IMG/VR virus record: IMGVR_UViG_3300010413_000019
Span: 7,682 to 71,681 of that record
Direction: 5' to 3' (one strand)
Source: a virus
DNA: 64,000 nt
Shown here piece after piece: positions 5,376-29,068 of this stretch. The first letter of the stretch is position 1, and the number at the start of each line of letters is the position of its first letter. Below the pieces are notes generated by a model that saw only the letters and a list, made by a program, of their open reading frames with translations, did not search any database and had not been told where the DNA came from. The translations under genes and the position numbers were made by a program.

Positions 5376-5657
5376 TTATAGTTCTTCATACCCGGCGGAT
5401 GCCGGTAGGCCGATTGATTCCATCTGAGAGATGATCTCACGGGCGTCTTCAAGAGTAGTCAATCCTGATATTTCCCACTCACCAAGAATGTCATCGTTAT
5501 CTTTTACATAGACAAGGACATCGTAGTACTCGGGCTCTGCATTCAGTTCAGAAGCAGGGATATACTCGTTCTTGTTTTCAGGGTTCTGGATCATTCCGAT
5601 CACCTGAACCTCTGTTGCGTTTTTGACCAGATCGGTCTGTAATTCAGTGAATTCCAT
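5376..5657 (-). CDS. hypothetical acidic protein
   Basis: 93 aa ORF with AAGGA RBS. Confidence 0.65.
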   Translation of the reverse strand: MEFTELQTDLVKNATEVQVIGMIQNPENKNEYIPASELNAEPEYYDVLVYVKDNDDILGEWEISGLTTLEDAREIISQMESIGLPASAGYEEL

Positions 5658-5665
5658 GATGGTCC

Positions 5666-6664
5666 TTATGCTGCGAGTTGGAGCTTACCGGTGGCTTTGT
5701 ACTTCTTGGCCTGCTCGCAGATCTCTGCTACGGCGCAATAGCGGCAGGCAACGACTTCACCTTTGACCTCGACCACTTCACCGACAAACCCGTCTTTAGC
5801 CAGGCGAGCCTGGGCATCGACCTGGTTGTCAAAGTTTTTAGTGGCACGAGTCTTGTTGGCAGGGTTCTTGTAGTACTTCCACACTGTCGGTTTTTCCCAC
5901 AGTTCATCAGGGGTACAGTCAGGAAGCTTGTCATCCGGGAGAGACATGTATTTATCGATCTCCATGACTCTGCCTTTGATCCAGCGATCGGTATTTTCGA
6001 TAGGCATGAGAGGGAACTCTTTAGGGATTACCCGTTCCTGTGGATAGCGGGCAGGGTCTTTGACAGCATCCATCTTGCGCCAGTCTGTAAAGACATACTC
6101 GATCTGCATGATGTCATCGGTGATCTTTTCCGGGTTGGCCCAGCGGTAGATTGACCCCTGTTTGATGTAGTCATCATGTTTGGAGCCAAAGATATGAGTC
6201 CACACCGATGTTGACTTGACATCGATGACACGCCCGTCAAGTACCATGTCAAACTTGCCTGTGATCTTGTAGTCTTTAAAGCCTACTTCTTTGATCACAC
6301 GCTGTTCTACATAGACCGGGATCGTGTCTTCCTCCAGCTCTTCTGGTTCAGGGTTGACCTTGATACGGTCGAACAGGTTCTCTACGCCGAGCATCTTCAG
6401 AGCTACTTTGAGGTTTTCCGGATCTTTCCAGGCTACCTCTACACCCGAGTGAATTGCCGTACCCATGCGGGAGTTGACCAGGGTGGAGATATCCACACGT
6501 TTGTCAAGCTTGTTGTTTTTACGGGCCAGTACGATGGCTTTGATCGGTTTGAGCAGTGTTGTGGCGCTGATAACGGTCGGATCATCAATGTAATCATAGT
6601 CATCGTGCACGAGCCATACAGCCATTGCCAGACTTAGGTTTTTGTTATTGGTATAGATGGTCAT
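5666..6664 (-). CDS. PD-(D/E)xK (Cas4/RecB-like) nuclease, N4 gp42-like
   Basis: ISATTLLKP, MGTAIH, GKFD-MVLDGRVIDVKST catalytic motif, C-terminal CRYC-x5-C. Confidence 0.85.
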   Translation of the reverse strand: MTIYTNNKNLSLAMAVWLVHDDYDYIDDPTVISATTLLKPIKAIVLARKNNKLDKRVDISTLVNSRMGTAIHSGVEVAWKDPENLKVALKMLGVENLFDRIKVNPEPEELEEDTIPVYVEQRVIKEVGFKDYKITGKFDMVLDGRVIDVKSTSVWTHIFGSKHDDYIKQGSIYRWANPEKITDDIMQIEYVFTDWRKMDAVKDPARYPQERVIPKEFPLMPIENTDRWIKGRVMEIDKYMSLPDDKLPDCTPDELWEKPTVWKYYKNPANKTRATKNFDNQVDAQARLAKDGFVGEVVEVKGEVVACRYCAVAEICEQAKKYKATGKLQLAA

Positions 6665-7233
6665 TCATCATCCTTTTTTATGTTTGGGCCTCTTTTTAAG
6701 ATCTCAACAGCTCGATCCAGTTGGCTTTTAGTGATAGTAGAATCTGAGGCGGGGATAGTTTCACTTGTGCTATGCGGGGATTTCAAGTCATCCAGATAGA
6801 TTTCATTAGGGGTTATACCTTTGATTGTAACCCCATAATCAGAGTTACGCATCATAATGCGACCATCTCGGAATGTTTGTCTAGCCAGCTCGTCAGCTAC
6901 CTGCAGCTGTACACGGTGAGCTTCCATACTGCGCTTCACGTAAATATCATCTATGTCCGCAAGGGATAGCTTAGCTGCCGTAGTCTTGCTGACTGCACGT
7001 GCAGAGGGGGCAGTAGTGAAGCTCATTGGATCGTCATAGACACTGGTATCAAAGAAAGATTTGACGGTGCGGTACAGTTGAGCCAGTTCATCACGGTTAA
7101 AGATAAAGATGGGGATCACTTTTACAGAATCAAGATGATCCTGGGCATCGCTTAGGTTTACAAACTCACCGATATGCTCGACTTCGCCGGACATATTGAG
7201 GATGTAATAAGATTTTGCATCTGCCATAGTCAT
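6661..7233 (-). CDS. hypothetical protein
   Basis: 190 aa ORF with ATGA overlaps on both sides. Confidence 0.65.
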   Translation of the reverse strand: MTMADAKSYYILNMSGEVEHIGEFVNLSDAQDHLDSVKVIPIFIFNRDELAQLYRTVKSFFDTSVYDDPMSFTTAPSARAVSKTTAAKLSLADIDDIYVKRSMEAHRVQLQVADELARQTFRDGRIMMRNSDYGVTIKGITPNEIYLDDLKSPHSTSETIPASDSTITKSQLDRAVEILKRGPNIKKDDE

Positions 7234-7586
7234 CCCTTACGCAGTATGTAGTTGTCGTACTCTACGCGGGTATCCAGTGTGATGTACTGGCCCTCGTCTT
7301 TATTGAATACAACGAACTTCTCTGGATCAAAGTTATTGATGTTGCCGGCCTTTTCTTTGATCTCTGCAACGACTAGATCCAGTTTTTCTTGGTCACATTC
7401 ACCCTCTACGAGGTCCCATGTGTAGCTGTACTTTTGACGACCGCTGTGGTCGGAGATTCTGATACTCCCGATACGGGTATCACGGAACTTGATGTAGGCT
7501 GAACGGAACTGGCTTGTGTGCCAGTGCAATGCCCCGTAGGGCTTCAGCTCTGTCATTAGGTGTTTGAATATCTGTTGGATTTTCAT
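7230..7586 (-). CDS. hypothetical protein (IRISDH motif)
   Basis: 118 aa ORF coupled to the DNA polymerase stop. Confidence 0.7.
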   Translation of the reverse strand: MKIQQIFKHLMTELKPYGALHWHTSQFRSAYIKFRDTRIGSIRISDHSGRQKYSYTWDLVEGECDQEKLDLVVAEIKEKAGNINNFDPEKFVVFNKDEGQYITLDTRVEYDNYILRKG

Positions 7587-10189
7587 TTTTTATCCTTTTC
7601 TTCATTTAGTCCATGCTCTATAAGGAACTCTTCGATCTCTTTAACCGACAGGTGGTTTTTGAGCGTGTACTGCTTGTCCCAGGACTTACCGATATCAAGT
7701 TCGGCTTCCATGAGGACCTCTTCACTGTAGATGCTCGGATGAGCATTCCAGCGCATCTCTTCGGTGAGAGTGTCATTGAGCCACTTGATCACTTCTGGTT
7801 CATTCTTGATGATGAAGTATCCGGCATCGTGGATTGTGTTGGCAGCGAAGATCTTGTCCTCGAAGCCTGAACCCTTGAGGCGCTTCTCTGTGGCGATAAG
7901 AGCACGGTTCATCAACTGTCCCCAGGACTGGGTCACAGCATTTGAAGCACTGCGTCCCTCAGAGGCAGCTTCGTAAGGTGTGGACTCTTTCCCTACCAGT
8001 GTTTTGGCGAGGATGGGGGTGCGAAGGCGTAAGCCGAAAGCACACTCGACGAAGCCGTGCTCAGATCCGAATTCAGTGTTCTTCTTGGTGAAGTCACCCA
8101 GACCGCTGTATAGCTCGTGGTATCCGATCTCGATGGCTCTGGCCACATCTTCCGGTAGACCGATGTTCGTGACAAGGGTTTTCCATGTCCCTCCGTACTG
8201 GAGAGCAAAGGATGGGGCTTTAGCCTGGTCTCGGATATCTTTCTGCTCTTTCTTGAACCGATTGATGTCTTCGACCGAGTTGATGTCGTACTGGCGCACA
8301 ACTTCAGGGTCGATGTAGACACCTTTTACTGTTACCGGTTCCTTGAGTTTGGAGAAGAATGCGATGGCTCTGAGTGAGTGGCCGTCAGCACCTTCGGAGA
8401 ACTCTTTGGTCTTCATCGGGTCACCTGACAGGATCGCACCGATACGGTCTTCAAGTGCAGCAAAGTCTGCCCCGGCAATGAGCCACCCATCGGGAGCCAC
8501 GAAGCAGGACTTGATCAGCTTGGCATACGTGGAACCGGAAGGGATGTTCTGCATGTTCGGGCTGTTTGATGATAGGCGGCCGGACTGGGTACCCCCGAGT
8601 TTGAGGTTACCGTTGAGCCAGACCGTACCGTCATTACGTGTGAAGGCCATCTCCTCAAAGTTCTTGATGAAGTTATCGAGGATGATGTCCACTTTGGAGA
8701 TATCGATCAGAGCGTTAAGCACTATCTCCTGCTCCTCCGTTTTGGCGAGGACCTTCAATTTGGCAAGTGTCTTGGCTCCGGTAGCAGGCTCTTTTGAATC
8801 TGTCTTGTCTATGACCGGAAAATCCCAGAACTCATACAGCAGCTTCTGCTTCTGTTTGGTGGATCCAGGATTGAAAGTGACATGTCTGAACTCATCGATG
8901 GATTTCATCTTCTTCTTGAGCTTGTTGTTGGCAGTCACCATTGCTTCGCGCTGCAGTAAAAAGTTGAAGCGCTTGATCGCCGGGGTATTCTCGAGGTCGT
9001 ACATTGCGTTGTAGCGGATGACCTCCAGTTGATCTCGAGTGCTCTTGACCTTGTTCAGATCCATCGGCAGACCGATGAGCATCATCTTGAGCAGCACATT
9101 GAGGGACGGCTGCATGATCTCTTCGTAGATCTTCAACTGATCATCGGCTATCACGGTCGGCATGTACTTGTCATGCACATACCATGTAGCCAGACTGTCA
9201 ACGAGGTTGTACTCGAGTAGGGTATCCATCTCGATCTTGGTGATATCGTTGATGTCCTCCAGGGCATAGTTCCCGGTGAACTCAAATGCGTTCTCTTTGA
9301 GACCCAGCTTGACATCTGCCGTGGAGTTTAGAGCCAGATAGGTGAGCAGCATTGTGTCCTGCACATCTTTGAACACCTCAAGGCCGTGGTGCATACCGAC
9401 GTAATCGGTAGAGTGCTCCATGAAGAGGGTGTAGATCAATACCTTGACATCATAGAGAGAGTTGTGGAACCATACCTTACCCTTGTAGGTCTCGAAGAAG
9501 ACCTTGAGTACTTCTTTGATTGGTTCGGTGATGGGGAAAGCCACACCGTTGTGTTGATCCCAGGCAAAGGAGATGGTTCCCAGCTCGGCCCTCTCGAATC
9601 TCAGACTGGTCGCTTCGATATCACTGGTGAGTGCCGGGATGTCCAGAAGTGAGAGTAGGGTGGTTGCAATAGCTTCAGGTTCTCTCGGATAGTATGCAGA
9701 GTGTATAATGTCTTTACCGAGTTCTTTGAATGTCCCGGCTTTATGCTGAACCAAAGTGTAAAGAGACATGTCGATCTTCTCTTGGACCACCGGGTTATAG
9801 AAGACCGCTTGATAGTTTGAAGATAAGATCACTTTGATATGTTCGTATCCGGGAAGCTTACAGCTCTTGACATAACCGAAATGTGGTTCGGCCTTACGTT
9901 CACCGGTAAGAACTTTGAAGTAGTTACCGTCTGCAACTAAGATCGTATCAATACCGAGATGTTCGATAGATTTAAGTAGAGTTGCGAGGTACTCCTTGAT
10001 AGTTGACACTTTTACTTTCTTGGCATCATCATATTTCAGAGTGAAGGCCACGATCTGATCTTTTGAGATGTCACTCTCTATCGGCTTGACGTAAGTGTCG
10101 TACAAAGGTTGCATCTTAAAGCTGGACTCTTTGATAAGCAGAGCAATCGAGAGATTGTCCGAAGAGTCACCAAATAGAATATGTCGCAT
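7583..10189 (-). CDS. family A DNA polymerase (N4 gp39-like)
   Basis: Exo I SDIEAT, Exo II FHNSLYD, Exo III YNLVD, SGRLSS.PNMQN, motif A DFAALE, motif B RDQAKAPSFALQYGG, motif C IHDA. Likely start is MRHILF at 10189 rather than 10270. Confidence 0.95.
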   Translation of the reverse strand: MRHILFGDSSDNLSIALLIKESSFKMQPLYDTYVKPIESDISKDQIVAFTLKYDDAKKVKVSTIKEYLATLLKSIEHLGIDTILVADGNYFKVLTGERKAEPHFGYVKSCKLPGYEHIKVILSSNYQAVFYNPVVQEKIDMSLYTLVQHKAGTFKELGKDIIHSAYYPREPEAIATTLLSLLDIPALTSDIEATSLRFERAELGTISFAWDQHNGVAFPITEPIKEVLKVFFETYKGKVWFHNSLYDVKVLIYTLFMEHSTDYVGMHHGLEVFKDVQDTMLLTYLALNSTADVKLGLKENAFEFTGNYALEDINDITKIEMDTLLEYNLVDSLATWYVHDKYMPTVIADDQLKIYEEIMQPSLNVLLKMMLIGLPMDLNKVKSTRDQLEVIRYNAMYDLENTPAIKRFNFLLQREAMVTANNKLKKKMKSIDEFRHVTFNPGSTKQKQKLLYEFWDFPVIDKTDSKEPATGAKTLAKLKVLAKTEEQEIVLNALIDISKVDIILDNFIKNFEEMAFTRNDGTVWLNGNLKLGGTQSGRLSSNSPNMQNIPSGSTYAKLIKSCFVAPDGWLIAGADFAALEDRIGAILSGDPMKTKEFSEGADGHSLRAIAFFSKLKEPVTVKGVYIDPEVVRQYDINSVEDINRFKKEQKDIRDQAKAPSFALQYGGTWKTLVTNIGLPEDVARAIEIGYHELYSGLGDFTKKNTEFGSEHGFVECAFGLRLRTPILAKTLVGKESTPYEAASEGRSASNAVTQSWGQLMNRALIATEKRLKGSGFEDKIFAANTIHDAGYFIIKNEPEVIKWLNDTLTEEMRWNAHPSIYSEEVLMEAELDIGKSWDKQYTLKNHLSVKEIEEFLIEHGLNEEKDKK

Positions 10190-10268
10190 AAGAAATCTTT
10201 CAGAAATGTGAGTTATGGTTGAGGGGTTTGAATGTTGATCCATGAGAGAGCACGGAAGTGCTTTGAAC

Positions 10269-10518
10269 AATTACAGTACAAATTACAGTACAAAATCGAG
10301 CTTAAAAAAATATGGCCCTATACAGTGGATTGAGTGGTGGACTGAGGACCCACCACACCACTATTTCTTAAAGTCCGATAAAGTCCGAAAACTAAGTCCC
10401 CATAGACATTTACCCCGCATTTATAATCCAACGTAGTCCAGCTTAATCCGGATGAATCCAGAAATAATTACAGTACATATTGCAGTATAAAAGTTTTATG
10501 CCGTATAATTACAGTATA
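10269..10518. mobile_element. attP-like site: integrase arm-type repeats and ~10-bp-periodic accessory-factor repeats
   Basis: AATTACAGTAYA at 10269, 10281, 10466 and 10507, plus a variant TATTGCAGTATA at 10478. AAGTCC x3 at 10371-10399 and a(a/g)tcc every 10 nt at 10425-10460. Lies immediately upstream of the integrase. Confidence 0.7.
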
Positions 10519-10535: not shown

Positions 10536-11759
10536 ATGGGTCGCACAACAAAACCTCTCAGCGATGCGGAGGTCCGCAAAGCAAAATCCCTCGAAAAGAT
10601 GTATAAGCTCTTTGACGGAGCGGGGCTCTATCTCGAGGTGAAGACAAATGGCCGTAAGGTATGGCGTACCGACTTCCGATGGGAAGGCAAGACCAAATCA
10701 TACACGATCGGAGACTATCCGACAGTGACTCTCTCTTCGGCCCGTATAACGTCCCAGGAGGTCCGTGAGGATGCCAGGAATGGCATTGATCCAGTACAGA
10801 AGAGAAAAGGCTCTGAGGGCTCTGAGAATGCTGTATCCATACAGACCTTTAAACAGGTTGGAGATGAGTTCATGGAACTCAAATCATACACGTACAGTCT
10901 GTCACACTACATGAAGCAGCACGGCCGGTTGAACAACTACGTCTACCCCTACATCGGATCCAGGGATATCAGGGAGATCACCAAGCAGGACATCATTGAT
11001 CTGATCAAGAATGTCCAGAAGGTAGAGACTAAGACCACCCGGCAGACTCAGAAGCATGAGACAGCCAAGAGAGTCTTTCAGTTGATCTCACAGATCTACC
11101 AGTACGCGGTGCACCATGACATCGTCATTGATGACATCCCCCGGAGGATAGAGTTCAGTTCAGTCATCCCCAGGATCACCCCGCAGAAGCTAAAGGCGAT
11201 CGTTGAACTCAACGGGGTCAGGATGATGTACGGGATGCTCTCGGAGTACCAGGGAGACTTCACAACGAGGAACGCATTGAAGTTCCTGGCTCTATCTGCA
11301 CTGCGGCCGGGGAACATCCGGAACATGAAGTGGGAGTACATCGACTTCCAGAATGATGTGGTCAACTTCCCAGGGGAAGCTATGAAGATGAAGGAGTCAT
11401 ACAGACTCCCTCTCACTTCCACACTGATCCAGTTGATCGATGAGATGAAACCCCTCACCCGGTACCATTCCGAGTATGTCTTCTGCTCGCCTATCGCTCC
11501 GAGCAAGCCGATGTCCGAGAACACTCTGAACTACGCCCATAAAAGAATTGGGATCGCAGACCATAATGCCCACGGCTGGAGAAGCTCGTTCTCAACCCTC
11601 TGTTATGAGAAGCAGAAGGATCACGGCTTCGGAGCTGAAGTAATAGAGAGCCAGTTGGCACACTCACTGGGGAATGCGGTGAAGACTGCCTATCTCAGGA
11701 GTGATTTCATCGTTGAGAGGCAGCTGCTGCTCCGATGGTGGGAGAAACTGATCACGTAA
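10536..11759 (+). CDS. int: tyrosine integrase, P4/IntA type with N-terminal arm-binding domain
   Basis: PLSDAEVRKAK...KLFDGAGLYL arm domain; catalytic residues R (ALRPG), K (MKMK), HGWR, LAH, AY; GGAGG RBS. Confidence 0.95.
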   Translation: MGRTTKPLSDAEVRKAKSLEKMYKLFDGAGLYLEVKTNGRKVWRTDFRWEGKTKSYTIGDYPTVTLSSARITSQEVREDARNGIDPVQKRKGSEGSENAVSIQTFKQVGDEFMELKSYTYSLSHYMKQHGRLNNYVYPYIGSRDIREITKQDIIDLIKNVQKVETKTTRQTQKHETAKRVFQLISQIYQYAVHHDIVIDDIPRRIEFSSVIPRITPQKLKAIVELNGVRMMYGMLSEYQGDFTTRNALKFLALSALRPGNIRNMKWEYIDFQNDVVNFPGEAMKMKESYRLPLTSTLIQLIDEMKPLTRYHSEYVFCSPIAPSKPMSENTLNYAHKRIGIADHNAHGWRSSFSTLCYEKQKDHGFGAEVIESQLAHSLGNAVKTAYLRSDFIVERQLLLRWWEKLIT

Positions 11760-12282: not shown

Positions 12283-12284
12283 GA

Positions 12285-15686: not shown

Positions 15687-15799
15687 TGTTGACTCCTATC
15701 AGATTTGCAGTATTAAAAAGTCAATGTCATTAAAGCTCTCATCGAGCTCACCTGTACTCATTTGCAGTCCTTTACGTAGCCCGGATGGGCTGGTCTTCC

Positions 15800-18129: not shown

Positions 18130-20937
18130 TAGTGTTCAGGACACACACCACTGTATCTCGGTTCATATCTGCGAAACCTATAATAGTTTCCTCAATAGAG
18201 GAACCCTCTTCCGGGAATACTCCCCCATCGTCAAACACATAGGTGTTGTAGGAGATCTCTCCGTCTTGATTGATATAGCCGACAGCGATCTTATCACCGT
18301 CTTCTACGATGATGCATCTGTCCGGGAGTGTGTATTCATCAGGCATCGATTCCCTCCAACTCATCAGGAATTTGGACAATACCCTGAGCAATCAGGATTT
18401 CCATACCAAGTTCGATATCTTGTTGTGTTGGTTCGAAACCTTCGATAAGTTTGAGGCCGTCTTCTTGGATCTCCATTACACGGTCTGTAACAATGCCCTT
18501 GTCAGCGAGCTCATTTAGTGTTTTGATGCAGTGGACGACACACTTAGCGGCGTGTAGTTCTTCCGGTGTCATCTCTTCAAGTGATTTAATTTCCATTTTT
18601 TGGTCCCTTTTGTTTGAAAGTTTTTATAGCAAGTAATGCAAGTATTGTAAGTATGGCCGCGATTGTGAATGAACAAGCAAATAGATCTCCGCTGCATACT
18701 TCAAAATCGGGTGTGTCTACAGGTGAGTAGAGTTGCATCACTCAGTCCCTGTTCTTGGATCGGTTTTTGAGGCATGTGTCCATTTAGATGTGAAGCTTTT
18801 ATTGTGGGAAGTAAAAGAGGTACACCCGGAATCCCATGCCATAGGATACCCGTCATGAATACCCGCAAAATGCCTTTTCAGAGCAGCCTTAGGGTTAGAC
18901 TCCCAGACCCAGATAGGGTCATCGATCTTCCAGTCATCATACGGCTTTACTTCGACGAGGTCATAATCACTGGCCCCGCGAGATTCGTAGAAACGCCCGT
19001 CTTTTTGATGTACGAATAAAGCACCGTCACTGCGCATTGAAACAACTGACATAGTTGAATTCCTATCAACACATAGAACTCTTACAGGCTCACCGTTGCG
19101 GTAACGGTACTCCTTATCCATTGAGATTGATTCAGACATGTTAATCCTTTTCTATCCCCCAGGCTTCCGCCAGGGACATCTGTATATTTGGTTGATTGAT
19201 TGATTTGAGGTACTCGTAGGCTCCGGCGCACATCTTTAGTGCTTGGTTCGAGCCAGAGGTATTCATGTCAGTATCGAGGTCATACACTGTTTTATGGCAG
19301 TTGAATGAGTTCATCGAATCTGATCGGAGCATCTCTTTGAGCTGGTCTACTCTCCCTTCCTTGAGATGCATGGCTTTACCATTATCTCTGAAGGGGCAGT
19401 TACTGCACATTTTTAGTACGCGGTATTCATTTGATTCTACGAGTTCCATGTATCCACCTATTGTTTATCTTTATAGCTGTCTTCTTCGGTGACTGCAGAC
19501 CATACCGCGGCAGCAAGAAAGAGTGCTGCAATTAGATATATCCAGTCCATGTTAACACCCGGATGGGTGCTTGAGGGCAAAAATCTTTGCCGCTCTGCGG
19601 GCAATACGCGCCCAGCGGGTATCATAGTTGATCTTCATGTTCTTCCTTTCTGCCAGGGTGGTGGTGGCAGCATGTCTTTGATATGCTCGAGTTCTTCATC
19701 GAAGTCTCGGCCACATAGATGGCATAGTCGTTGTAGTTTTTCTAGGGCTTCAAAGATCCCTGTAGCTCCTTCGAGCTCACCCTCGTAAAATGAGGAGTTG
19801 GCATCGCACATCTGGCGATCGTACTTTCTGTCATCAAGTGTGTCCATCTTGAGATCTCCTCTTTTTAATGTCGATCAGTTCAGCAGTAAAGCCATTTACG
19901 ATCTGCTTCATTGATTCTCTGGCGAACTCTAAGGCACGCTCTGCAGACTCTACGCTGCCGTCAGCTGCTATGTTCTTCATGTCCTCTATGACTTTTTCAG
20001 ACATAGCTTCGAAATCTATTTTGACTTTGTCCACTTCATCCATGCCGTCTCCTTTAGAGTTTTTCATAGAGCGCATTTGCTCTGTATGCTAAAGAGGTCT
20101 TCCCCCAAATAATGGTCTCGCACCATTCAATGCACCCTATGAAAAGCTCGGAGGTAGCCGAAGCTACCATGATTACATCGGTTTTGAGATGACCGGGATA
20201 TCTGTTTTAAGCTCAGCTGTGCACTTGAAGAGGCGCATTGTCTTGCCGAGATGTACCGGCTGTTTCATAGCCTCGTGTGCTTGTTTTTCAGATTTGAATT
20301 CGAGGGTGTCGAAGAAAGAACCATCCGCGTTGAATACGAGTCCACGGTAATTTTTAGTTACCTCAAGATCTGTTTTTTCACGCTGTGGCTTTGATGATGT
20401 TACGACTTTACCGTCGATACGGATCTCTACTGATGATTTTGTTAGTGACATTGGTGTTTCCTGTTTTGGGATTTCGATTTCTTGGCACAGGTTGGTCTGT
20501 ACTACGGTTGGCTCTTCGCAGAGCGATTCTGGTGGTGTTGGTTCAGGTTTAAGGCGCAATCGTACCCCTGAGGTGAATCCGCGGACATCCGTTTCTGGGT
20601 GTACGAATTCCCATTCCGGGTTGCCTGCCTCAAGTCCGTAGTCCATAGTCCATTCAAATTCCGCACCGGCATTTTCATGGAGTTTGTAGACGTAAGCCTC
20701 AATAGGGGTGAAGATTCTTGATTTAGCTGTTGGGGCACCTTTTGGCTGGTGAATACGGAAGATTATTTTGTTAGAGATTTTTGAAATGTCGATATCATCC
20801 GGAACTTTGTCCCAGTTGGCTGTATTTTCATTTTTGTCATACAGCAATTTGACACACCAGTCAAACTCTACGTTACCGTCACCCGATACAAGAAGCTCAT
20901 AGGCCTCTTTAGGGGTATAGATTTTAAAATCAGCCAT
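18098..20937 (-). CDS. cluster of small hypothetical genes (18098-18391, 18339-18596, 18738-19139, 19141-19449 Cys-rich, 19635-19847, 19834-20076, 20173-20937)
   Basis: Co-oriented ORFs; 19141-19449 has CSNCPF, FNCHKT and CAGA as probable metal ligands. Confidence 0.6.
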
Positions 20938-20939
20938 GA

Positions 20940-22233: not shown

Positions 22234-22275
22234 GATTTCCCTTTTGTTGATGGTGGTCGTAGACCATATTTGTGG

Positions 22276-22351: not shown

Positions 22352-22401
22352 ATTTTGAAGGCCCCTATCTCTTCAGTGAGAACCACTTCAGGGCCTATGT
22401 T

Positions 22402-22496
22402 CACCATCCCGGACTCGAACCGGTGACGCCCTAACGGGATAAGTCATAACCCCGATGTTGACTTTTTTGAGCCGCTGTCCATACAGCTTATGGTGC
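22402..22496 (-). ncRNA. tRNA-like RNA or degenerate tRNA
   Basis: CACCAT/ATGGTG closing stem, D-like hairpin GCTG-TATGGA-CAGC, T arm CCGG-TTCGAGT-CCGG; no canonical anticodon arm. Confidence 0.45.
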
Positions 22497-22775
22497 ATAC
22501 TAAGACTTGGTTCCCAATTTCTACCGTGCCGCTTGGGGCGTCTCTTGTAGTTCCAAGTCTCATACGATTCGTATTGTTGTCTGTACCATGCCCGGTACAG
22601 TGGGTTTGGAGTATTAATGAATTTTACATTTCGAGGCTGATCCACCCCTACTGGCCGAGCTTAATCGGAGTCCTAGTTAACCACTCAAAGTTAGGACTGC
22701 ATACTTACCTCCAATGAGATAACTATGCAATATAAGATTGATTGTGTATTTTCCAGAGCAGAGAGGGGATCCTCT

Positions 22776-24197
22776 CTACTTCTTGACTGATAGGTCAAGA
22801 TCAAGGTCTTTGGCAGCCTTGAGGCCCATCATAGTGAGCATAGTGTTGGCATAAGATGCACCTCCGCCGACTGAACCCTTGTCCCCACCGCCGATAACGG
22901 TAGCAGGTACATTGATTTTAGCCATAGCATCGGCACGGTATTTCTCAGCCTGGAGCCATGTATCAAGCTTTTGCTGCAGGGCGTTGTCCGCCTGCAGGAT
23001 CACACGTTTTTTGTGTGCCTGAGCATCAGCAAGGGCTTTGATTTTCTTGGCTTCGATAAGAGAGCGCTCATAGCGTTCCTGCTCAGCTTTCTTCTCTAGT
23101 TTTGCAACTTCGAGGTTCTTCTGGGCTTCGATGGTTTGCTTTTTCTTTTCAGTCTCAGCGATCGTTGTCTCTTTGATCTGGTTCACAAGTTGCTTAGCTT
23201 CAGCCTCGGCTACGAGTTTTTGACCGTTTGCCTTGGCAGCTTCAGCTTCCAATAGGGATTTACGGCGATCGTTCTCTGCAAGTGCAGCAGCTGCTTCCGC
23301 ATCACGTTGTTTACCGATCAGGGTACGGACCTTTTCTTCTGGGTTCACGTATGTGACGCGGGCAGTAACGACTTTCAGGTTGTAGTTCTCGATATCATCA
23401 AGACCTTGACGCACCGGTTGGCCGTTCTTATCCATAACAAGTTTGACAACTTCATTGATCTGATCAGATTGCTCTGTCTTGGATCCATCACGGTTAATGA
23501 TCTCACCATCGACTACCATCTTGTTGCCCTGGCGTGCACCAGTGCTGTTTTGAACTTCCTGTGTCACTTGAGTCTTATACAGACCGTTCATGAACTGGTC
23601 AGAGAAGTATTCATCGAAGTCTGAACCACGTTTAGTGATGTACTCTTGGATCGACATCAGACGAGCTGAGTTGATGGCTGCAGAGTAGAAAGTAGACTTG
23701 AGCAGGTTGTTGACAAGAGCTTCATCCGATCCGAACTCTTTATGGATCTTCAGCATCCCGTCACGACTTGTAGGCAGTTCCACACGGGCGATACCGTAGA
23801 AGTCTGCTTTCGCTGCATCAGAGAAGCGGATAGTCGGAGATGCGATATGATCAGCAGTTGATACCCGCTCTTCGTTACCGCCATCTTGTCCCGCACGTTC
23901 GCCAGTGAACATAGGAGTAGACACGGCTACGACTTTGTCATATTCATACACATTACCGAGAGCGCTTAACTTAATACCTGGGTCGGTGATAACAGATAAA
24001 TGCCCTGTAGGGTACTGCACAACGTAGTTCTTATCTGAATCGGCAATGAACACGATCGAAGTGATCATAAACAGTGCACCGATTGAGATACCGATTATTT
24101 TGAATGTCTTTTTGTATGCTTCACTGATAAAAGAAATCAGTGGGATAACAAATACCGCTAAAGCAATAACGATAAGACCAAAAATAAATGTTCCCAT
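22776..24197 (-). CDS. SPFH/band-7 (flotillin-like) membrane protein
   Basis: Two N-terminal TM helices, SPFH-like core, long Ala/Glu coiled coil; start MGTF at 24197 after AAGGA. Confidence 0.85.
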   Translation of the reverse strand: MGTFIFGLIVIALAVFVIPLISFISEAYKKTFKIIGISIGALFMITSIVFIADSDKNYVVQYPTGHLSVITDPGIKLSALGNVYEYDKVVAVSTPMFTGERAGQDGGNEERVSTADHIASPTIRFSDAAKADFYGIARVELPTSRDGMLKIHKEFGSDEALVNNLLKSTFYSAAINSARLMSIQEYITKRGSDFDEYFSDQFMNGLYKTQVTQEVQNSTGARQGNKMVVDGEIINRDGSKTEQSDQINEVVKLVMDKNGQPVRQGLDDIENYNLKVVTARVTYVNPEEKVRTLIGKQRDAEAAAALAENDRRKSLLEAEAAKANGQKLVAEAEAKQLVNQIKETTIAETEKKKQTIEAQKNLEVAKLEKKAEQERYERSLIEAKKIKALADAQAHKKRVILQADNALQQKLDTWLQAEKYRADAMAKINVPATVIGGGDKGSVGGGASYANTMLTMMGLKAAKDLDLDLSVKK

Positions 24198-24224
24198 TTT
24201 TTTCCTTGGGTGTTGGGTTTGTTT

Positions 24225-25065
24225 AACCCCGGAGTGATCAGCGTGGATCCTCACACACCGGGTTGATTCCGACCTGCGGTATTGACTTGCATCGAAACAG
24301 ATTGGTCATCTGCATTAGGTTCAAGTGGGTTTCCCCTCCCTGATACAAGCGGTGCATTAAACCGGCAGGAACCAGAAGAGTTCTCCCTCCTTTACCATTC
24401 AGAGGGCTAGATTCGTAGTTGTCTTTGCCCGTTGGCTACGTCCACAACTATCTCGATCTATCGGTTTTAAAAACGGGTGGATTAATAGTTACCACCATTA
24501 CCCATGTCTCGGACGCATGGTTGACCACAACTGCCTATCGAGTTGCCAGACTAAGGAGTTGGTAAGGCTCCAAGGAACACACCGCACCTGTGGCGGATAC
24601 ACCTTGCTATCGTACATAGCAAGTCCAGTTAAGCAGCTTCATACATGTACGACATTTGGCTGCTAGATGTGCTCACTGGAACCTTATGGCGCCCGCACAA
24701 GGGTTTGAACCTCGTGCCTATCGGTAGCGTGGTCGATAGGATTGTCGAGCCTCTTCGGAAGAGCTACGCTGCCCCTATTCCAAGGGATGCTCTCTACGAC
24801 AACAACGCAAACGTGGCAATACCGTTCCGATTCAGATTGATCAACATCTTTCACGTATTAAGCTACCACTGGGATTGTTGAGCCGTCCTACTATACTCTA
24901 CGGGCATATACATACTCCCGGTAACCGACCGGGCTTGGTTCATTTGATATCGTTCAATAGAGGTACCTTACCAATAACTAAAACGTCCTATCTATCCTCA
25001 AGGAAGGGTGTTGGTCCGAAGACCTCAAAGGCTGGTAAGACCTCTATGAACCTGGGTCACCAGTC
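24225..25065 (-). ncRNA. large, densely structured non-coding RNA region (~850 nt)
   Basis: No minus-strand ORF of 60 aa or more; more than 15 hairpins and long-range stems, including a C(UUCG)G loop and an embedded tRNA-like 3' end. Confidence 0.65.
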
Positions 25066-25080
25066 AGGCTCATAGCGACC

Positions 25081-25449
25081 TTACAGGCCACATATAAGTG
25101 ACAGAGATCCCCTTTCAGTGATCTTGATCTGCCACAGTGCTTTTGCGTACCCCATCATAAAGATGAGTTGTTTCTCCGACTTATGCACATACTTGGGGTT
25201 AACTGAGTAAACCCGTACAACATAGTCGTTCTCACGGAGAATAACGCGCTCTTGTTTGCTAAACCAGGCGCGCAGCTGTCTCTTGCTCTTGAATCCAAAG
25301 AAATAGCGGTAAGCATCGGCACTCTCCAAGATATCTTCGAAGTCTTCCCCGAAAGTTGGGTGTTCGGCGTCTGCATGATTGAAGAGCGCAACTTTATCGG
25401 CATAAGGACCATATCCATCTGTCCTATGTTCGACACGGTAGATCAGCAT
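25081..25449 (-). CDS. hypothetical protein
   Basis: 122 aa (YRVEH...GPY...HP...FGF...WF), typical small phage gene, with RBS. Confidence 0.7.
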   Translation of the reverse strand: MLIYRVEHRTDGYGPYADKVALFNHADAEHPTFGEDFEDILESADAYRYFFGFKSKRQLRAWFSKQERVILRENDYVVRVYSVNPKYVHKSEKQLIFMMGYAKALWQIKITERGSLSLICGL

Positions 25450-25596
25450 TCAAATCCTTTGTTTAGACTCTCTCGAGATGGCTACTATCTAGCATTCGCA
25501 AGAAGGCCCAAGCCAAAGGCTCGGGTGAGGAGAAAATTTGGAGAGTTCTGAGGAGAAATTGTGGTGAACAGGTTGTTTATTCCCTGTTGCATTTAA

Positions 25597-25612
25597 GGGC
25601 GCGGATGCGCCC
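25597..25612 (-). promoter_or_regulatory. hairpin promoter candidate (template-strand GGGCGC-GGAT-GCGCCC)
   Basis: One of seven C-GGAT-G hairpins; preceded by TGCATTTAA at the same spacing as the 25736 copy. Confidence 0.65.
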
Positions 25613-25735
25613 AGAGGTTATTTAACAGTCCGCTGGACTGCTACCGAAACCTGATTTCATAGGGCACCTCCTAGAAAAAAAATCGTGGACAAGCCTCACA
25701 CCCTCTTTTGGGTGCTATCTTGTCCTGCATTTAAA

Positions 25736-25749
25736 CCCACGGATGTGGG
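25736..25749 (-). promoter_or_regulatory. hairpin promoter candidate (CCCAC-GGAT-GTGGG)
   Basis: Same motif and spacing as the 25597 copy. Confidence 0.65.
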
Positions 25750-25751
25750 CG

Positions 25752-25964
25752 TTAGTCGCCGTGTAGGTGTGCATAATCATCATCATTCTGATAATCTTTG
25801 TTAAGTTCCATCTCTTGGATGCCGAACCACTCGTATTCCCAAGCTGTTCGGCCTTCATGATCGATGGAGGCTACTGCGGCCTCTCGGGTGTCGTAGACAC
25901 CTACGATGTAACCGCCCTGTTGGTCGTACTCATTGACAAATCGTAGTACCGCGAATAACTGCAT
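25752..25964 (-). CDS. hypothetical protein
   Basis: 70 aa, AAGGAG RBS; NEYDQ.G.Y..GV motif. Confidence 0.7.
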   Translation of the reverse strand: MQLFAVLRFVNEYDQQGGYIVGVYDTREAAVASIDHEGRTAWEYEWFGIQEMELNKDYQNDDDYAHLHGD

Positions 25965-25973
25965 TGGTTCTCC

Positions 25974-27002
25974 TTATGATAACATGTATTCACTCTTACG
26001 GATGTCCTCCGCAAGGTCATAACTGAACTTCTTCAACTGAACATCTGTACCGGTAATCTCGCTGATGATATCGCTGAGCAGGTTGCTCTCTGCAATTTCA
26101 GCCAAGATGTCACGGTAGAAGTCCATCACCTTTGGCATGTGGTTCGGATGGCATGTGAAGGCATCATGGATATGTGCTACTTCAAAGTCTGCACGTCTGA
26201 TAATCTCACGTGCGACATACCCGTCAATGCTGTGGATGATGTTGGGCGCCAAGGATGTTTTACGGTCACTTGGTTGGTTCGGGTAGAAGCGGTATGTGAA
26301 CTGCATGTGATTGAGTTCATCCACTTCAATACGTGCATCGACTTGGTCGACTACGTTTACCTTTGCCACGTGACCGTCTGGCAATGTCCACTGGTGGAAG
26401 TATGCGAACGGGTCCCAAGCATTGTTGATGACCTGCATGACAGCCTCTGCACCCGTGAACTTCTCCATGAGAATCTCGTAGAACATGTTAAGCTCCATCG
26501 TATCCTCACCAAGTAGCTCTTTAGGCTTGGCCTTAGAGTTATAGTAGTGAGTCATGATAGGCTTTTTGATGTAGCTACGGGTGAACATAGGGTTCTCGCC
26601 GGCTTTAGCGATAAGTGCGTCCGATACGGCTGTATAGGCGTCATTACGCTGGCCGTTGTTGATAAGGTTTACAGCTTCGGCTGTCTTCTTACACCCTGAG
26701 AGTGCGGCCATGATTTGTAGCCCACTTGCAGTGGCATCCATGAACATGTTGTGGTTGATAGGCTTACCGTCTACCGCATCGGCAAAGGCATAGCAGGCCT
26801 TGCGGAACATCAAAGGCTCTTCAGCCTGAGATGCCCACTCATCAAGATTGTTCAGGATATCTGTTTGGTTCTGGTTTACCCACTGGATGCGGGTTTCGAA
26901 CAACTCTTTGTCAAGGCCGTAGGTATTGGCCATATCGATTTTCAACATGTCGAAGCCTGTGAAGCGCTCCGCGAATGAGATAGGTTTTGGTATTGCTGAC
27001 AT
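25974..27002 (-). CDS. RNA polymerase II subunit 2 (N4 gp16-like, T7-type catalytic half)
   Basis: DATASGLQ (motif A), R..IKKPIMTHYY (motif B), PNIIHSIDG, IHDAF (motif C). Confidence 0.95.
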   Translation of the reverse strand: MSAIPKPISFAERFTGFDMLKIDMANTYGLDKELFETRIQWVNQNQTDILNNLDEWASQAEEPLMFRKACYAFADAVDGKPINHNMFMDATASGLQIMAALSGCKKTAEAVNLINNGQRNDAYTAVSDALIAKAGENPMFTRSYIKKPIMTHYYNSKAKPKELLGEDTMELNMFYEILMEKFTGAEAVMQVINNAWDPFAYFHQWTLPDGHVAKVNVVDQVDARIEVDELNHMQFTYRFYPNQPSDRKTSLAPNIIHSIDGYVAREIIRRADFEVAHIHDAFTCHPNHMPKVMDFYRDILAEIAESNLLSDIISEITGTDVQLKKFSYDLAEDIRKSEYMLS

Positions 27003-27164
27003 AGGTGGTGACCTCTTTCTTTTGTTGGTTCGGGTTAGCTAAAGATATAAGCAACTACGATGAGACTATAGATGTCGAACATAAATCCGAACAGCTTGGT
27101 CAAATCATCCATTGGATTACCATCAACATATTTGTTGATGAGAGACAATATGATGGTCATCATG

Positions 27165-28073
27165 CTATGCTACCCCTGTAAGTATCTCTGCTTTGGCAAA
27201 CTGTAGGATTGCCTTCTTGTACTCCGAGCCCTGAAGGTTGATATCATAGCCCTGTGAGTACTGGCGCCCGCGCTTGTCGAACTTCCACACGAAATAGAAC
27301 TGGTTCTCATTGTCCAGTTCATACTGGTATACACGGTCTGATTGAGCACACCGCGCATTGTGCTGTTCGATTTTACGCAGTTCGACAGGATCCGTGATGT
27401 CTCCAGTCTCCTTGGGAAGTTCCTTCTCCGCGAGCATACATGTATTGAGTTCCCAAGCAATGCTTTGGAGTTTGTTCAACACATCAAGACTCTGTTTCAT
27501 ACCGTGGTAGTTCTGCTCGCCGAGGATGGCTGAGCTGTCTTCGAGAAGTAGTCCCCCATGTCTGTTGTCTGTCCAAGGACGTGGTTCACACGTCATCGGT
27601 GGCAGGTACATAGCCATGTGGATTTTCTGAAGAGTCTCATCTTCGAGTTTGAAGAATGGTTTGATGACTGCCGTATCATGGTCGTGCTCCGGACTGAAGG
27701 CATGAAGTATCTCATACACTCCGGCATCCTTGCACACTGCAAGTATCTCTGCACCACACTTGACTGCATCAAGTTGCTCGAGACCGATACGGTGACCTAA
27801 CATCGTGGCTACCGCCTGGATAGGCGTGACACTGTCTAACGTACTGAGGACCGAATAGAACAGCTCAACAGCTATCTCTTCTGGTTCCATAGATATCTTG
27901 GCGATACGCTCATCCTTGGATTTGAAATACTCCTTACCAAGGTACTCACGCACTGCAACTACACATTGCTGATAGTTCGGGTTACCGTTAAGGTCTCCGA
28001 TGTCCTGTTTAATCCACACTGGGATATTCTTTTTACTGTAAGTCTCTTCGACTGTTAATTGAGTTTGATACAT
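27165..28073 (-). CDS. RNA polymerase II subunit 1 (N4 gp15-like)
   Basis: LPPM.CEP, FDKRGRQYSQGY.INLQG..YKKA. Confidence 0.93.
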   Translation of the reverse strand: MYQTQLTVEETYSKKNIPVWIKQDIGDLNGNPNYQQCVVAVREYLGKEYFKSKDERIAKISMEPEEIAVELFYSVLSTLDSVTPIQAVATMLGHRIGLEQLDAVKCGAEILAVCKDAGVYEILHAFSPEHDHDTAVIKPFFKLEDETLQKIHMAMYLPPMTCEPRPWTDNRHGGLLLEDSSAILGEQNYHGMKQSLDVLNKLQSIAWELNTCMLAEKELPKETGDITDPVELRKIEQHNARCAQSDRVYQYELDNENQFYFVWKFDKRGRQYSQGYDINLQGSEYKKAILQFAKAEILTGVA

Positions 28074-28096
28074 GAGGATGTCCTTTTCGAGGTTGT

Positions 28097-28172
28097 ATCA
28101 TAGTTCATTGGCATAGGGTAAGTTAATACATGCATAGACATACCGGAACTATTTGTCCGAATTTGTTACAAT
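28097..28172. promoter_or_regulatory. divergent sigma70-like promoters (RNAP II operon leftward, RHH gene rightward)
   Basis: TATGAT on the minus strand at 28097-28102; extended -10 TGtTACAAT on the plus strand at 28164-28172. Confidence 0.45.
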
Positions 28173-28197
28173 AGCACATCCAAAAAAAGGACATCCT

Positions 28198-28482
28198 ATG
28201 AAACACAAAAAGAAGATACCACTCTCTGCCAAGGTCTCCGAAGAGACCACTGAGCAGTGACAGGACCTGCATGAATGGCTTGGCCTATCGAAGGCCGAGA
28301 TATTAACTCGAGCGATCTACCAGTACTACCAAGTCACCGAGAGAACATCATTTAAACTGATGTCACTGCAGAGACCGGATGATAGATTGTTCTTTATGAA
28401 CACTGCCCGAGAGTTATGTTATGAAGCACTCGATAAGACTATCGAGAAGCTCAACGAGAGATTGAATGAGAAGTCTGAATGA
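28198..28482 (+). pseudogene. ribbon-helix-helix (CopG/Arc/MetJ-like) repressor interrupted by an in-frame UGA at codon 21 (pseudogene or readthrough gene)
   Basis: AAAGGA RBS; MKHKKKIPLSAKVSEETTEQ*QDLHEWLGLSKAEILTRAIYQYYQ...NEKSE*. The same frame stays open for 73 codons after the TGA at 28258-28260. Confidence 0.8.
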
Positions 28483-28613
28483 CTGTGAGACACGTCATCA
28501 ATGTACCACGTCCGTACATCGCTCTGAGTCATAGACTAATTGTAGGGTGACCTACTCACTACTAAAAAGAATCCTGAGCAGATCGGAGTTAAGAGAATTT
28601 GCGTTGGGAAGGA

Positions 28614-28650
28614 AAAAAATAAGGGAGTATCGGGATAAACCCGATAGTCT
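28614..28650 (-). terminator. intrinsic terminator after the gp2-like gene
   Basis: TATCGGG-TTTAT-CCCGATA hairpin followed by a T run on the minus strand. Confidence 0.6.
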
Positions 28651-28905
28651 TTAGGCTGTCTTTAGATATTGGTCAAGACCGGTTGTATCGATTTCACGAG
28701 AACCGAATTCTTCAACAGTAACATCTTTCAGCATTTTTGCAAGTGCCTCTGGAGTGATACGTTCTTGAACAGCTTTTGGAAGACGTTTGTTGATGATGAC
28801 ATATCCAAGATAAGTATCACCGATGGAGAGAGAGAAACCTTTCGCGTCATCTTTCGGTTTCGGAGTTTGGTTTGCCTGATTGTTGTTATTCAGTGCTTCG
28901 GTCAT
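28651..28905 (-). CDS. N4 gp2/Drc-like ssDNA-binding RNAP II coactivator
   Basis: Asn/Gln-rich N-terminus then KDDAKGF.L....LG; lies just upstream of RNAP II; start at 28905. Confidence 0.5.
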   Translation of the reverse strand: MTEALNNNNQANQTPKPKDDAKGFSLSIGDTYLGYVIINKRLPKAVQERITPEALAKMLKDVTVEEFGSREIDTTGLDQYLKTA

Positions 28906-29048
28906 GAGGATGTCCTTAAAGTTATGTAATGAGATGCATTGCACTCACCCATCACTAAAAAGAAAAATAGAAAAATAAAGAGGTCTCCCCTCTTATGTAT
29001 TTCCTATCTATAAGTGTAGGTGTAGTGTAATATAAGTATCTTCATTAT

Positions 29049-29068
29049 CAGTGCACGGATGTGCACTG
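29049..29068 (-). promoter_or_regulatory. hairpin promoter candidate (CAGTGCAC-GGAT-GTGCACTG)
   Basis: 8-bp stem upstream of the gp2-like gene. Confidence 0.65.

What the first reader, a model, noticed from the sequence alone, without database searches (positions are those of the whole stretch)
5392..29068. Seven strand-specific C-GGAT-G DNA hairpins spread over the whole early/middle arm
Seen: perfect 5-8 bp stems with variable sequence but an invariant C-GGAT-G cap on the + (template) strand at 5392, 7731, 15778, 19556, 25597, 25736 and 29049. Most lie at gene ends or in intergenic gaps, and two share TGCATTTAA at identical spacing. I saw none with a 5 bp or longer stem on the other strand or in the late arm. 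A rough chance expectation is about 0.03 per 30 kb. Known: N4 vRNAP uses template hairpins with a 3-nt loop (C-GDA-G), and only three, near the genome end. Inference: this is a new tetraloop promoter class reaching ~24 kb into the middle genes, read by vRNAP or RNAP II.
Basis: partly seen in the sequence, partly recalled or inferred. Interest (0 to 1): 0.7.

Follow-up and report, generated by a model that had tools for sequence, protein, structure and literature searches.

The report
Tetraloop hairpin promoters in N4-like phage

Summary
All seven perfect hairpins capped C-GGAT-G are at the stated places, all on the + strand, which is the template strand of the minus-strand early/middle genes. 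There are none on the other strand or in the late arm. No cap reached 5 copies in 300 genome shuffles (range 2-4), against 7 observed.

They also share A at 11 and 15 nt and G at 13 or 14 nt beyond the loop, whatever the stem length.

The phage is a divergent schitovirus from a marine sediment metagenome. Its closest relative found (G001) has three template-strand C-GGAT-G hairpins with different stems, one just after the RNAPII large-subunit gene. More distant relatives carry N4-type C-GGA-G hairpins at that site and deeper in the middle genes.

My scan recovers the three known N4 promoters and the published LUZ7 tandem pair. LUZ7 middle promoters are reported as GC-rich hairpins with 3-4 nt loops.

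Best reading: single-stranded DNA hairpin promoters, a d(cGNABg) tetraloop variant of the N4 d(cGNAg) triloop. Which polymerase reads them, vRNAP or RNAPII, stays open.

"New promoter class" is overstated; this is a new variant of a known kind.

The parts
29049..29068 (+). Hairpin H7, CAGTGCAC-GGAT-GTGCACTG (8-bp stem) on the template strand. It is the only one upstream of the RNAPII genes. It lies in an AT-rich stretch, probably near the physical left end of the genome. Predicted RNA start is leftward, at about G 29043.
   Evidence: Synteny with the N4 gp69 / gp70-72 / genome end / P1 layout.
25736..25749 (+). Hairpin H6, CCCAC-GGAT-GTGGG. It starts 3 nt after the stop of the DUF7336 gene (25752-25964) and 225 nt after the RNAPII large-subunit stop. 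It is the first of a tandem pair. Predicted start is at G 25728.
   Evidence: Relatives carry a hairpin at the same site.
25597..25612 (+). Hairpin H5, GGGCGC-GGAT-GCGCCC, 138 nt downstream of H6. It shares TGCATTTAA with H6 at the same distance from the loop. Predicted start is at G 25590, about 140 nt before gene 25081-25449.
19556..19569 (+). Hairpin H4, CACCC-GGAT-GGGTG, in the gap between ORFs 19635-19847 and 19141-19449. A terminator-like hairpin (19576-19591) lies directly before it in mRNA sense. Predicted start is at G 19548.
15778..15791 (+). Hairpin H3, AGCCC-GGAT-GGGCT, intergenic, 9 nt after the stop of ORF 15800-16141. It lies upstream of ORF 15456-15686 and of the dNMP kinase gene. 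Predicted start is at G 15770.
7731..7746 (+). Hairpin H2, ATGCTC-GGAT-GAGCAT, embedded in DNA polymerase codons 842-847 of 895, 146 nt before its stop. It lies upstream of genes 7230-7586, 6661-7233 and the exonuclease gene. Predicted start is at G 7723.
5392..5405 (+). Hairpin H1, CCGGC-GGAT-GCCGG, in the last codons of ORF 5376-5657. It lies upstream of the Shine-Dalgarno sequence and ATG of gene 5028-5363 and of the AAA ATPase gene. Predicted start is at G 5384.
2301..2313 (+). Candidate eighth promoter of a second type: template-strand triloop hairpin CCCCC-GGA-GGGGG, 146 nt upstream of the primase start. GGTG at p10-13 is also found at the triloop hairpin at genome 6678-6690 (outside the window, upstream of the SSB homolog) and in relatives.
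   Evidence: CGGAG occurs 41 times on the template strand of the arm, 2 with a stem of 5 or more; on the other strand 33 times, none.
25887..25901 (+). Uncertain extra template-strand triloop hairpin GGTGTC-GTA-GACACC inside the DUF7336 gene, 73 nt after the RNAPII large-subunit stop. A second C-GTA-G hairpin lies at 22254-22266. Neither shares a clear downstream motif with the seven.

Best explanation
The seven elements are single-stranded DNA hairpin promoters for the phage's own T7-like RNA polymerases.

Inferred mechanism: negative supercoiling, with a single-strand binding cofactor, extrudes the inverted repeat. On the template strand the arm folds into a compact mini-hairpin. The C:G closing pair, the loop G and the loop A are those of the very stable d(cGNAg) loop that N4 vRNAP recognises. 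The extra T makes it a d(cGNABg) tetraloop.

The polymerase reads the loop and closing pair and measures a fixed distance from the loop, not from the stem base. It then starts the RNA leftward at the conserved G, 13-14 nt beyond the loop. This cuts the 24-kb early/middle arm into seven transcription units.

Shown: the anatomy, strand bias, spacing, non-randomness and conservation in relatives. Inferred: extrusion, the start point, and the enzyme.

I put about 0.75 on 'hairpin promoter'. Within that, RNAPII for the six hairpins downstream of the RNAPII genes is somewhat more likely (about 0.5) than vRNAP for all seven (about 0.25). H7, at the probable left end, may serve vRNAP.
For: 1. Non-random and strand- and arm-specific.

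2. Variable GC-rich stems (31 of 40 stem pairs are G:C, read) with an invariant cap. This fits recognition of the loop rather than of the stem sequence.

3. Aligned on the loop, A at p11 and A at p15 are found in 7 of 7. G is at p13 in 5 of 7 and at p14 in the other 2, whatever the stem length, 5-8 bp. With A at 0.293 on this strand, one invariant A column has chance 0.293^7 = 2e-4 (my arithmetic).

4. Controls. The same scan finds exactly the three N4 promoters. In LUZ7 it finds a tandem C-GTA-G pair 32 nt apart before gp14, matching the published tandem early start sites 33 nt apart before Drc.

5. In LUZ7 I find four template hairpins with stems of 6 bp or more and cap C-GGA(C)-G. One is a tetraloop, at 18106-18123. 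This equals the published number and description of middle promoters: stem 6 bp or more, loop 3-4 nt, G start about 15 bp downstream.

6. Relatives. 17 of 19 loci have a template-strand C-GGA-G hairpin 11-105 nt after the RNAPII large-subunit stop, with 6 distinct stems and one tandem pair. More lie 1.5-8.4 kb downstream. Of the other two loci, one holds only 23 nt downstream and L021 has none.

7. The closest relative, G001 (RNAPII-L 53% identical, GC 36% against 48%), has three template-strand C-GGAT-G hairpins with other stems. One is 23 nt after RNAPII-L. There are none on the other strand, and a C-GTAT-G hairpin lies after the DNA polymerase gene.

8. Across 18 distinct C-GGA(B)-G hairpins of relatives and LUZ7: T12 in 12 of 18, G13 in 14 of 18, A14 in 13 of 18. 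This fits the LUZ7 G start 13-15 nt from the hairpin centre.

9. None of the seven is followed by a U run in mRNA sense, and two lie inside coding sequence. Both points argue against terminators.

10. Loop chemistry. The d(GNA) triloop with a C:G closing pair is unusually stable (PMC3201870, abstract and passages). d(cGNABg) is named as a stable DNA tetraloop motif in the title of Nakano et al. 2002, seen only in that paper's reference list. The N4 promoter is described as a GCGGAGC mini-hairpin (PMC13037366, passages).
Against: There is no transcript data. No RNA run holds this phage, so no start site has been seen.

The phage is uncultivated and its host is unknown.

Strand bias alone cannot separate a template-strand DNA hairpin from an RNA hairpin in the mRNA.

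Several N4 vRNAP determinants are absent: the loop has 4 nt, not 3; -8G is present in only 2 of 7; and the N4 start position p10 is variable.

A11 and A15 are not conserved in G001.

The N4 review argues that supercoil-dependent hairpin promoters are confined to the left genome end. That speaks against vRNAP use 24 kb in.

Short terminator-like structures lie 50-70 nt downstream of H6 and H7. Transcripts from these two may therefore be short or attenuated.

The coordinates of the LUZ7 middle promoters are in a supplement I could not open, so my match of four hairpins to PM1-4 is inference.
Confidence: 0.75

Rival explanations
1. The hairpin acts in the RNA. The mRNA-sense stem-loop c(AUCC)g would be bound by a phage or host protein, acting as a translational operator, a stabiliser or a processing mark at gene junctions of polycistronic early/middle transcripts.
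For: The elements are equally strand-specific when read as RNA. Most sit just before a start codon or Shine-Dalgarno sequence. Nearest-neighbour folding gives the same energies for both strands, so energy does not decide between them.
Against: AUCC is not among the stable RNA loop types I know of (recalled). This genome has c(UUCG)g hairpins in RNA sense at 20153 and 28233. The complementary loop is exactly the N4/LUZ7 DNA promoter loop plus one base. Related hairpins in LUZ7 lie upstream of mapped primary 5' ends. The conserved A11/G13-14/A15 lies at a fixed distance from the loop, as expected for a polymerase ruler.
Confidence: 0.08
2. They are transcription terminators, or pause sites, for the phage polymerases at the ends of transcription units.
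For: Several lie at gene ends. In some relatives the hairpin after RNAPII-L is followed by four or five T in mRNA sense, so a double role there is conceivable.
Against: None of the seven is followed by a U run. H2 lies 146 nt and H1 14 nt before the stop codon of the gene they sit in. Terminators do not need an invariant loop. N4's proven promoters also have T after the stem in mRNA sense.
Confidence: 0.04
3. They are DNA-level signals of another process that is also strand-oriented. One possibility is single-strand initiation or priming sites for the phage primase. Another is that the polymerase makes replication primers there.
For: cGNAg mini-hairpins occur at primase-dependent origins of phage G4 and at ssiA (PMC13037366, passages). 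The elements lie in the replication-gene arm.
Against: They are absent from the late arm in both orientations. Their orientation follows the local genes. One sits at the syntenic post-RNAPII site, where LUZ7-type promoters lie. The fixed downstream G fits the transcription starts mapped in LUZ7.
Confidence: 0.05
4. Sub-rival on the enzyme: all seven are read by the injected vRNAP alone, so that early-type transcription runs about 24 kb into the genome.
For: H7 has the same cap and the same A11/A15 as the other six. It is the only such hairpin upstream of the RNAPII genes, at the probable left end. No N4-type triloop hairpin with a stem of 4 bp or more is on the template strand between 27000 and 30000. 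Ceyssens et al. state that vRNAP transcription pulls the next 10-40 kb of N4 DNA into the cell (PMC3715699, passage).
Against: In G001 all GGAT hairpins are downstream of RNAPII and none is in the early region. In relatives and in LUZ7, loops upstream of RNAPII (GAA, GTA) differ from those downstream (GGA). The N4 review argues that four vRNAP molecules and supercoil dependence restrict vRNAP promoters to the left end.
Confidence: 0.2

Closest known systems
Coliphage N4 early promoters P1-P3, read by the virion RNA polymerase
   Same: A template-strand hairpin with a variable 5-8 bp stem, a C:G closing pair and a loop that begins G and has A at the third place (GGA in P2 and P3). The start point is measured from the loop. 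One copy lies near the genome's left end.
   Different: The loop has four bases (GGAT), not three. G at -8 is present in 2 of 7. The N4 start position (p10, GG) is not conserved; the conserved G is at p13-14. There are seven copies over 24 kb against three within 4.6 kb.
Pseudomonas phage LUZ7 middle (RNAPII) hairpin promoters, mapped by ONT-cappable-seq
   Same: GC-rich hairpins in the middle-gene region with 3-4 nt loops and a G start about 15 bp downstream. By my scan LUZ7 has C-GGA-G hairpins directly after RNAPII-L and one C-GGAC-G tetraloop, with ATG or TTG at p11-13 as in H4-H6.
   Different: In LUZ7 the tetraloop is one case among triloops; here all seven carry GGAT. Stems here are 5-8 bp, against 6 bp or more. 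No Drc homolog is detectable here. The published coordinates are in a supplement I could not read.
d(cGNAg) mini-hairpin and d(cGNABg) stable DNA tetraloop motifs
   Same: C:G closing pair, G first, A third and a non-A fourth base. C-GGAT-G fits the motif letter for letter.
   Different: Those are thermodynamic motifs defined on oligonucleotides. Stability of these particular hairpins was not measured, and the folding tool has no special term for such loops.

Membership tests
N4-type vRNAP hairpin promoter | Inverted repeat forming a 5-7 bp stem on the template strand | tested here: met
   Stems of 5, 6, 5, 5, 6, 5 and 8 bp, all on the template strand of the local genes.
N4-type vRNAP hairpin promoter | Three-base loop with a central purine (-11) | tested here: not met
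   The loop has four bases, GGAT, in 7 of 7. The first three bases equal the GGA loop of N4 P2 and P3.
N4-type vRNAP hairpin promoter | C:G loop-closing pair, 5' G and 3' A of the loop (needed for extrusion and stability in N4) | tested here: met
   C-G..A(T)-G in 7 of 7. The requirement is as stated in PMC4496689.
N4-type vRNAP hairpin promoter | G at -8 in the stem and template C at +1 (RNA G at p10) | tested here: not met
   The stem base next to the closing C is G in 2 of 7. p10 reads G, C, A, C, A, A, T.
N4-type vRNAP hairpin promoter | Location at the left genome end, ahead of the early genes | tested here: inconclusive
   Only H7 is upstream of the RNAPII genes. The genome end is inferred from synteny with N4 gp69-72 and was not observed. 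Six of the seven lie beyond the RNAPII genes.
N4-type vRNAP hairpin promoter | Recognition by vRNAP through the -11 element and the specificity loop | tested here: inconclusive
   The N4 numbering was verified. The regions around K114, R119, W129, D901 and R904 do not align reliably among 31 vRNAPs.
LUZ7-type middle hairpin promoter | GC-rich hairpin, stem 6 bp or more, loop 3-4 nt, in the middle-gene region | tested here: met
   The loop is 4 nt. 31 of 40 stem pairs are G:C. Stems are 5-8 bp, and four of the seven have only 5. Six of the seven lie downstream of RNAPII.
LUZ7-type middle hairpin promoter | Primary 5' end, preferably G, about 15 bp downstream of the hairpin | not testable with these tools
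   The sequence is compatible: G at p13 or p14 in 7 of 7. No RNA run is available.
LUZ7-type middle hairpin promoter | Dependence on RNAPII with a single-strand binding cofactor (Drc, or gp2 in N4) | tested here: inconclusive
   Both RNAPII subunits are present. No Drc, gp2 or gp1 homolog was found by tblastn (all E above 1). Dependence itself cannot be tested here.
d(cGNABg) stable DNA tetraloop | C:G closing pair; G at loop position 1, A at 3, non-A at 4 | tested here: met
   C-GGAT-G in 7 of 7. The motif name comes from the title of Nakano et al. 2002, seen in a reference list. That paper itself was not read.

The most novel reading that the evidence does not exclude
Loop length is the switch between two polymerases. 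Under this reading the seven tetraloop hairpins, running from the probable left end through the DNA polymerase and exonuclease genes, are read by the injected vRNAP. The vRNAP would thereby transcribe, and help draw in, about 24 kb. The two triloop C-GGA-G hairpins that share GGTG at p10-13, before the primase and SSB genes, would be the RNAPII promoters. The converse assignment is also possible. Either way, one phage would carry two hairpin codes that differ by a single bulged base.
Probability: 0.15. Interest if true: 0.65.

Novelty: new variant of a known kind. Interest (0 to 1): 0.4.

Why it matters
Middle promoters of N4-like phages were long elusive. The only published map that I found of hairpin-type middle promoters is LUZ7. 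Other genome papers seen in those searches look only for three early hairpins with 3-nt loops.

Here a purely sequence-based scan shows three things:
- Template-strand cGNA(B)g hairpins with a fixed downstream T-G are spread along the early/middle arm in several schitovirus subfamilies.
- A marine lineage, the window phage and G001, has fixed a GGAT tetraloop.
- The hairpin directly after the RNAPII large-subunit gene is conserved in position.

This gives a simple rule for annotating transcription units in uncultivated schitoviruses. It also offers natural loop variants for testing what vRNAP and RNAPII actually recognise.

Tried and rejected
Leaderless mRNAs. ATG lies at p11-13 in H4, H5 and H6 (p12-14 in H7). 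The ORFs that would follow are tiny, 13 and 19 codons for H7 and H6 as read. ATG or TG at the same distance recurs in LUZ7 and in relatives. I therefore read it as part of the initiation region and not as a start codon.

Close DNA relatives. Megablast of two window stretches against phage records found nothing.

RNA evidence. No RNA holder is listed for window 19400-29300.

Natural variants. Laying contigs of two DNA runs showed no variation in or near the five hairpins covered. The second run holds the same phage in fragments.

Energy. Folding with DNA parameters gives -5 to -9 kcal/mol for either strand, so it does not tell the strands apart.

vRNAP residues. phmmer of the polymerase region against solved structures found nothing. 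BLAST to N4 gp50 aligns only from about residue 1328. A 31-sequence alignment is unreliable at the recognition elements.

Degenerate copies. None of the other nine CGGATG sites on the template strand of the arm forms a usable imperfect stem.

Other shared motifs. A direct-repeat search of the arm gave no further promoter-like family.

The closest vRNAP homolog, P0001 (44% identical).

Sigma-70-like sites are fewer than in shuffles, 16 against a mean of 26.

Earlier findings of the scan were not open.

Supplementary tables of the LUZ7 and other papers, which hold promoter coordinates, could not be read.
Full report
**What the window is.** The window is bases 7682-71681 of a 71,681-bp IMG/VR virus record, estimated 97% complete. 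DNA runs that hold it are from a marine sediment metagenome.

It is an N4-like phage (Schitoviridae):
- On the minus strand, from about 29.7 kb down to base 1: both RNAPII subunits (27165-28073 and 25974-27002), an AAA ATPase, dNMP kinase, DNA polymerase (7583-10270), exonuclease and primase.
- On the plus strand: terminase and an open frame of more than 3074 codons that aligns with N4 vRNAP.

So the + strand is the template strand of the early/middle arm.

No close DNA relative exists among deposited phages. The best RNAPII large-subunit matches there are about 43% identical.

**The observation.** They have perfect stems of 5-8 bp around C-GGAT-G.
- In the whole record CGGATG occurs 49 times, 32 on + and 17 on -. 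Only these seven have a stem of 5 bp or more. Two have 4 bp.
- C-GGAT-G is the commonest cap among 335 perfect hairpins, 7 against 3 at most for any other.
- In 300 dinucleotide-preserving shuffles no cap exceeded 4 copies. CGGATG-capped hairpins averaged about 0.13 per genome.
- No degenerate extra copies exist.

Chance is excluded.

**A second shared feature.** I aligned the seven on the loop in mRNA sense, taking p1 as the first base after the loop. A at p11 and A at p15 are invariant. G stands at p13 (5 of 7) or p14 (2 of 7). This spacing holds although the stems differ by up to 3 bp. A distance measured from the loop is what the N4 literature describes for vRNAP (PMC4496689, passages).

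**Controls of the method.**
- N4: the same scan returns only the three known early promoters, at 90-102, 557-573 and 4546-4562, with the RNA start G at p10.
- LUZ7: it returns a tandem C-GTA-G pair 32 nt apart before gp14. The published ONT-cappable-seq study reports two strong early starts 33 nt apart driving Drc.
- LUZ7 also has four template hairpins with stems of 6 bp or more and cap C-GGA-G or C-GGAC-G. One lies 9 nt after the RNAPII large-subunit gene. One, at 18106-18123, is a tetraloop.
- The paper describes four middle promoters as GC-rich hairpins with stems of 6 bp or more, 3-4 nt loops and a G start about 15 bp downstream. Their coordinates are in a supplement I could not read, so the match is inferred.

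**Relatives.** Relatives were fetched through the RNAPII large subunit, at 44-53% identity.
- 17 of 19 loci from the first two scans have a template-strand C-GGA-G hairpin 11-105 nt after the gene's stop. There are six different stems and one tandem pair. Further copies lie up to 8.4 kb downstream.
- Loops upstream of RNAPII are GAA or GTA instead.
- Of 19 further loci scanned, out of 32 fetched, 12 have such a hairpin 20-282 nt after the gene. One of these (L028) looks like a terminator. Seven have none there.
- The closest relative, G001 (73,023 bp, GC 36%), carries three template-strand C-GGAT-G hairpins with stems unlike those of the window. One is 23 nt after RNAPII-L. It also has a C-GTAT-G hairpin after the DNA polymerase gene, and no GGAT hairpin on the other strand.

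The GGAT cap is therefore conserved across two quite different genomes while the stems are free.

Over 18 distinct C-GGA(B)-G hairpins of relatives and LUZ7, T12, G13 and A14 dominate: 12, 14 and 13 of 18.

Named phages show the same spread along the arm. Counts are template strand against non-template strand:
- FSL SP-076: 8 against 0.
- Ab09: 5 against 0.
- Presley: 4 against 2.
- LUZ7: 7 against 3.
- N4: 3 against 1, and N4 is the only one confined to the left end.

**Why DNA and not RNA, and why not terminators.**
- The cap is the N4 promoter loop plus one base. The N4 loop is a d(cGNAg) mini-hairpin with a sheared G:A pair.
- C-GGAT-G fits d(cGNABg), which is named as a stable DNA tetraloop motif in a title I saw only in a reference list.
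- In RNA sense the loop is AUCC. This genome does have c(UUCG)g hairpins in RNA sense elsewhere.
- None of the seven is followed by a U run. H2 lies inside DNA polymerase codons 842-847 and H1 lies 14 nt before a stop codon. That placement suits internal promoters better than terminators.
- Folding energies do not separate the strands.

**Which polymerase.** This stays open.

For RNAPII:
- The LUZ7 precedent.
- The different loops upstream and downstream of RNAPII in relatives.
- G001, where all GGAT hairpins are downstream of RNAPII.
- The N4 review's argument that vRNAP promoters are tied to the left end.

For vRNAP:
- H7 has the same cap and the same A11/A15 as the other six.
- It is the only such hairpin ahead of the RNAPII genes.
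- It sits where N4 has P1. The N4 gp69 homolog is at 30613-31314. Small rightward-type genes follow, then a terminator-like hairpin and an AT-rich stretch.

The vRNAP recognition residues could not be aligned.

The genome also has two triloop C-GGA-G template hairpins sharing GGTG at p10-13. One is before the primase gene (2301-2313). The other is before the SSB homolog (genome 6678-6690, outside the window). They may form a second class.

**Verdict.** The feature is real and functional. It is best read as a set of hairpin promoters. It is a lineage-specific tetraloop variant of a kind already known from N4 and LUZ7, not a new class. Confidence in the promoter reading is 0.75. Interest is moderate.

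Noticed in passing
window 10536-11759 (+), with repeats at 10266-10307 and 10451-10492: A complete tyrosine integrase (Arm-DNA-bind_3, Phage_int_M and Phage_integrase domains) lies antisense inside the replication module of an N4-like phage. That is unexpected for a family I know as lytic (recalled). Four copies of an ATTACAGTACA-like repeat lie between it and the DNA polymerase start.
   Followed up: partly
window 11965-12928 (-): Three tandem paralogous genes of about 105 codons each. They appear as direct-repeat families spaced 314-326 nt apart.
   Followed up: no
window 22276-22351 (-), 30039-30113 (+), 30346-30420 (+): Three tRNA genes. tRNA-Trp lies in the middle arm. tRNA-Asn and tRNA-Gln lie on the + strand ahead of the late genes, so the ORFs on the minus strand across them are spurious.
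   Followed up: partly
window 20153-20168 and 28233-28248; G001 near 15459: Hairpins whose loop reads c(UUCG)g in mRNA sense, the classic stable RNA tetraloop (recalled). In both the window and G001, one lies shortly upstream of the RNAPII small-subunit gene.
   Followed up: no
window 25613-25735 (-): Between H6 and H5 the RNA would fold strongly (z-score -4.7) into a stem-loop followed by eight U. After that come AGGAGG and a 12-codon mini-ORF. This could be a short RNA or an attenuator. A similar terminator-like hairpin lies 55-70 nt downstream of H7, at 28978-28994.
   Followed up: partly
genome 6678-6690 (outside the window, about 1 kb before its first base), + strand: A template-strand triloop hairpin GAGCC-GGA-GGCTC lies about 110 nt upstream of the N4 SSB homolog. 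T12-G13-A14 follow the loop, as in the relatives.
   Followed up: partly
G001 32727-34301 and 34755-35852: The DNA polymerase of the closest relative is in two open frames about 450 nt apart. Both match the single gene of the window.
   Followed up: no
L002-L007 (8257-10032 in L003) and L009 (6925-8703): In these relatives the open frame that holds the RNAPII large-subunit match is about 590 codons long. The two RNAPII subunits may be fused there.
   Followed up: no
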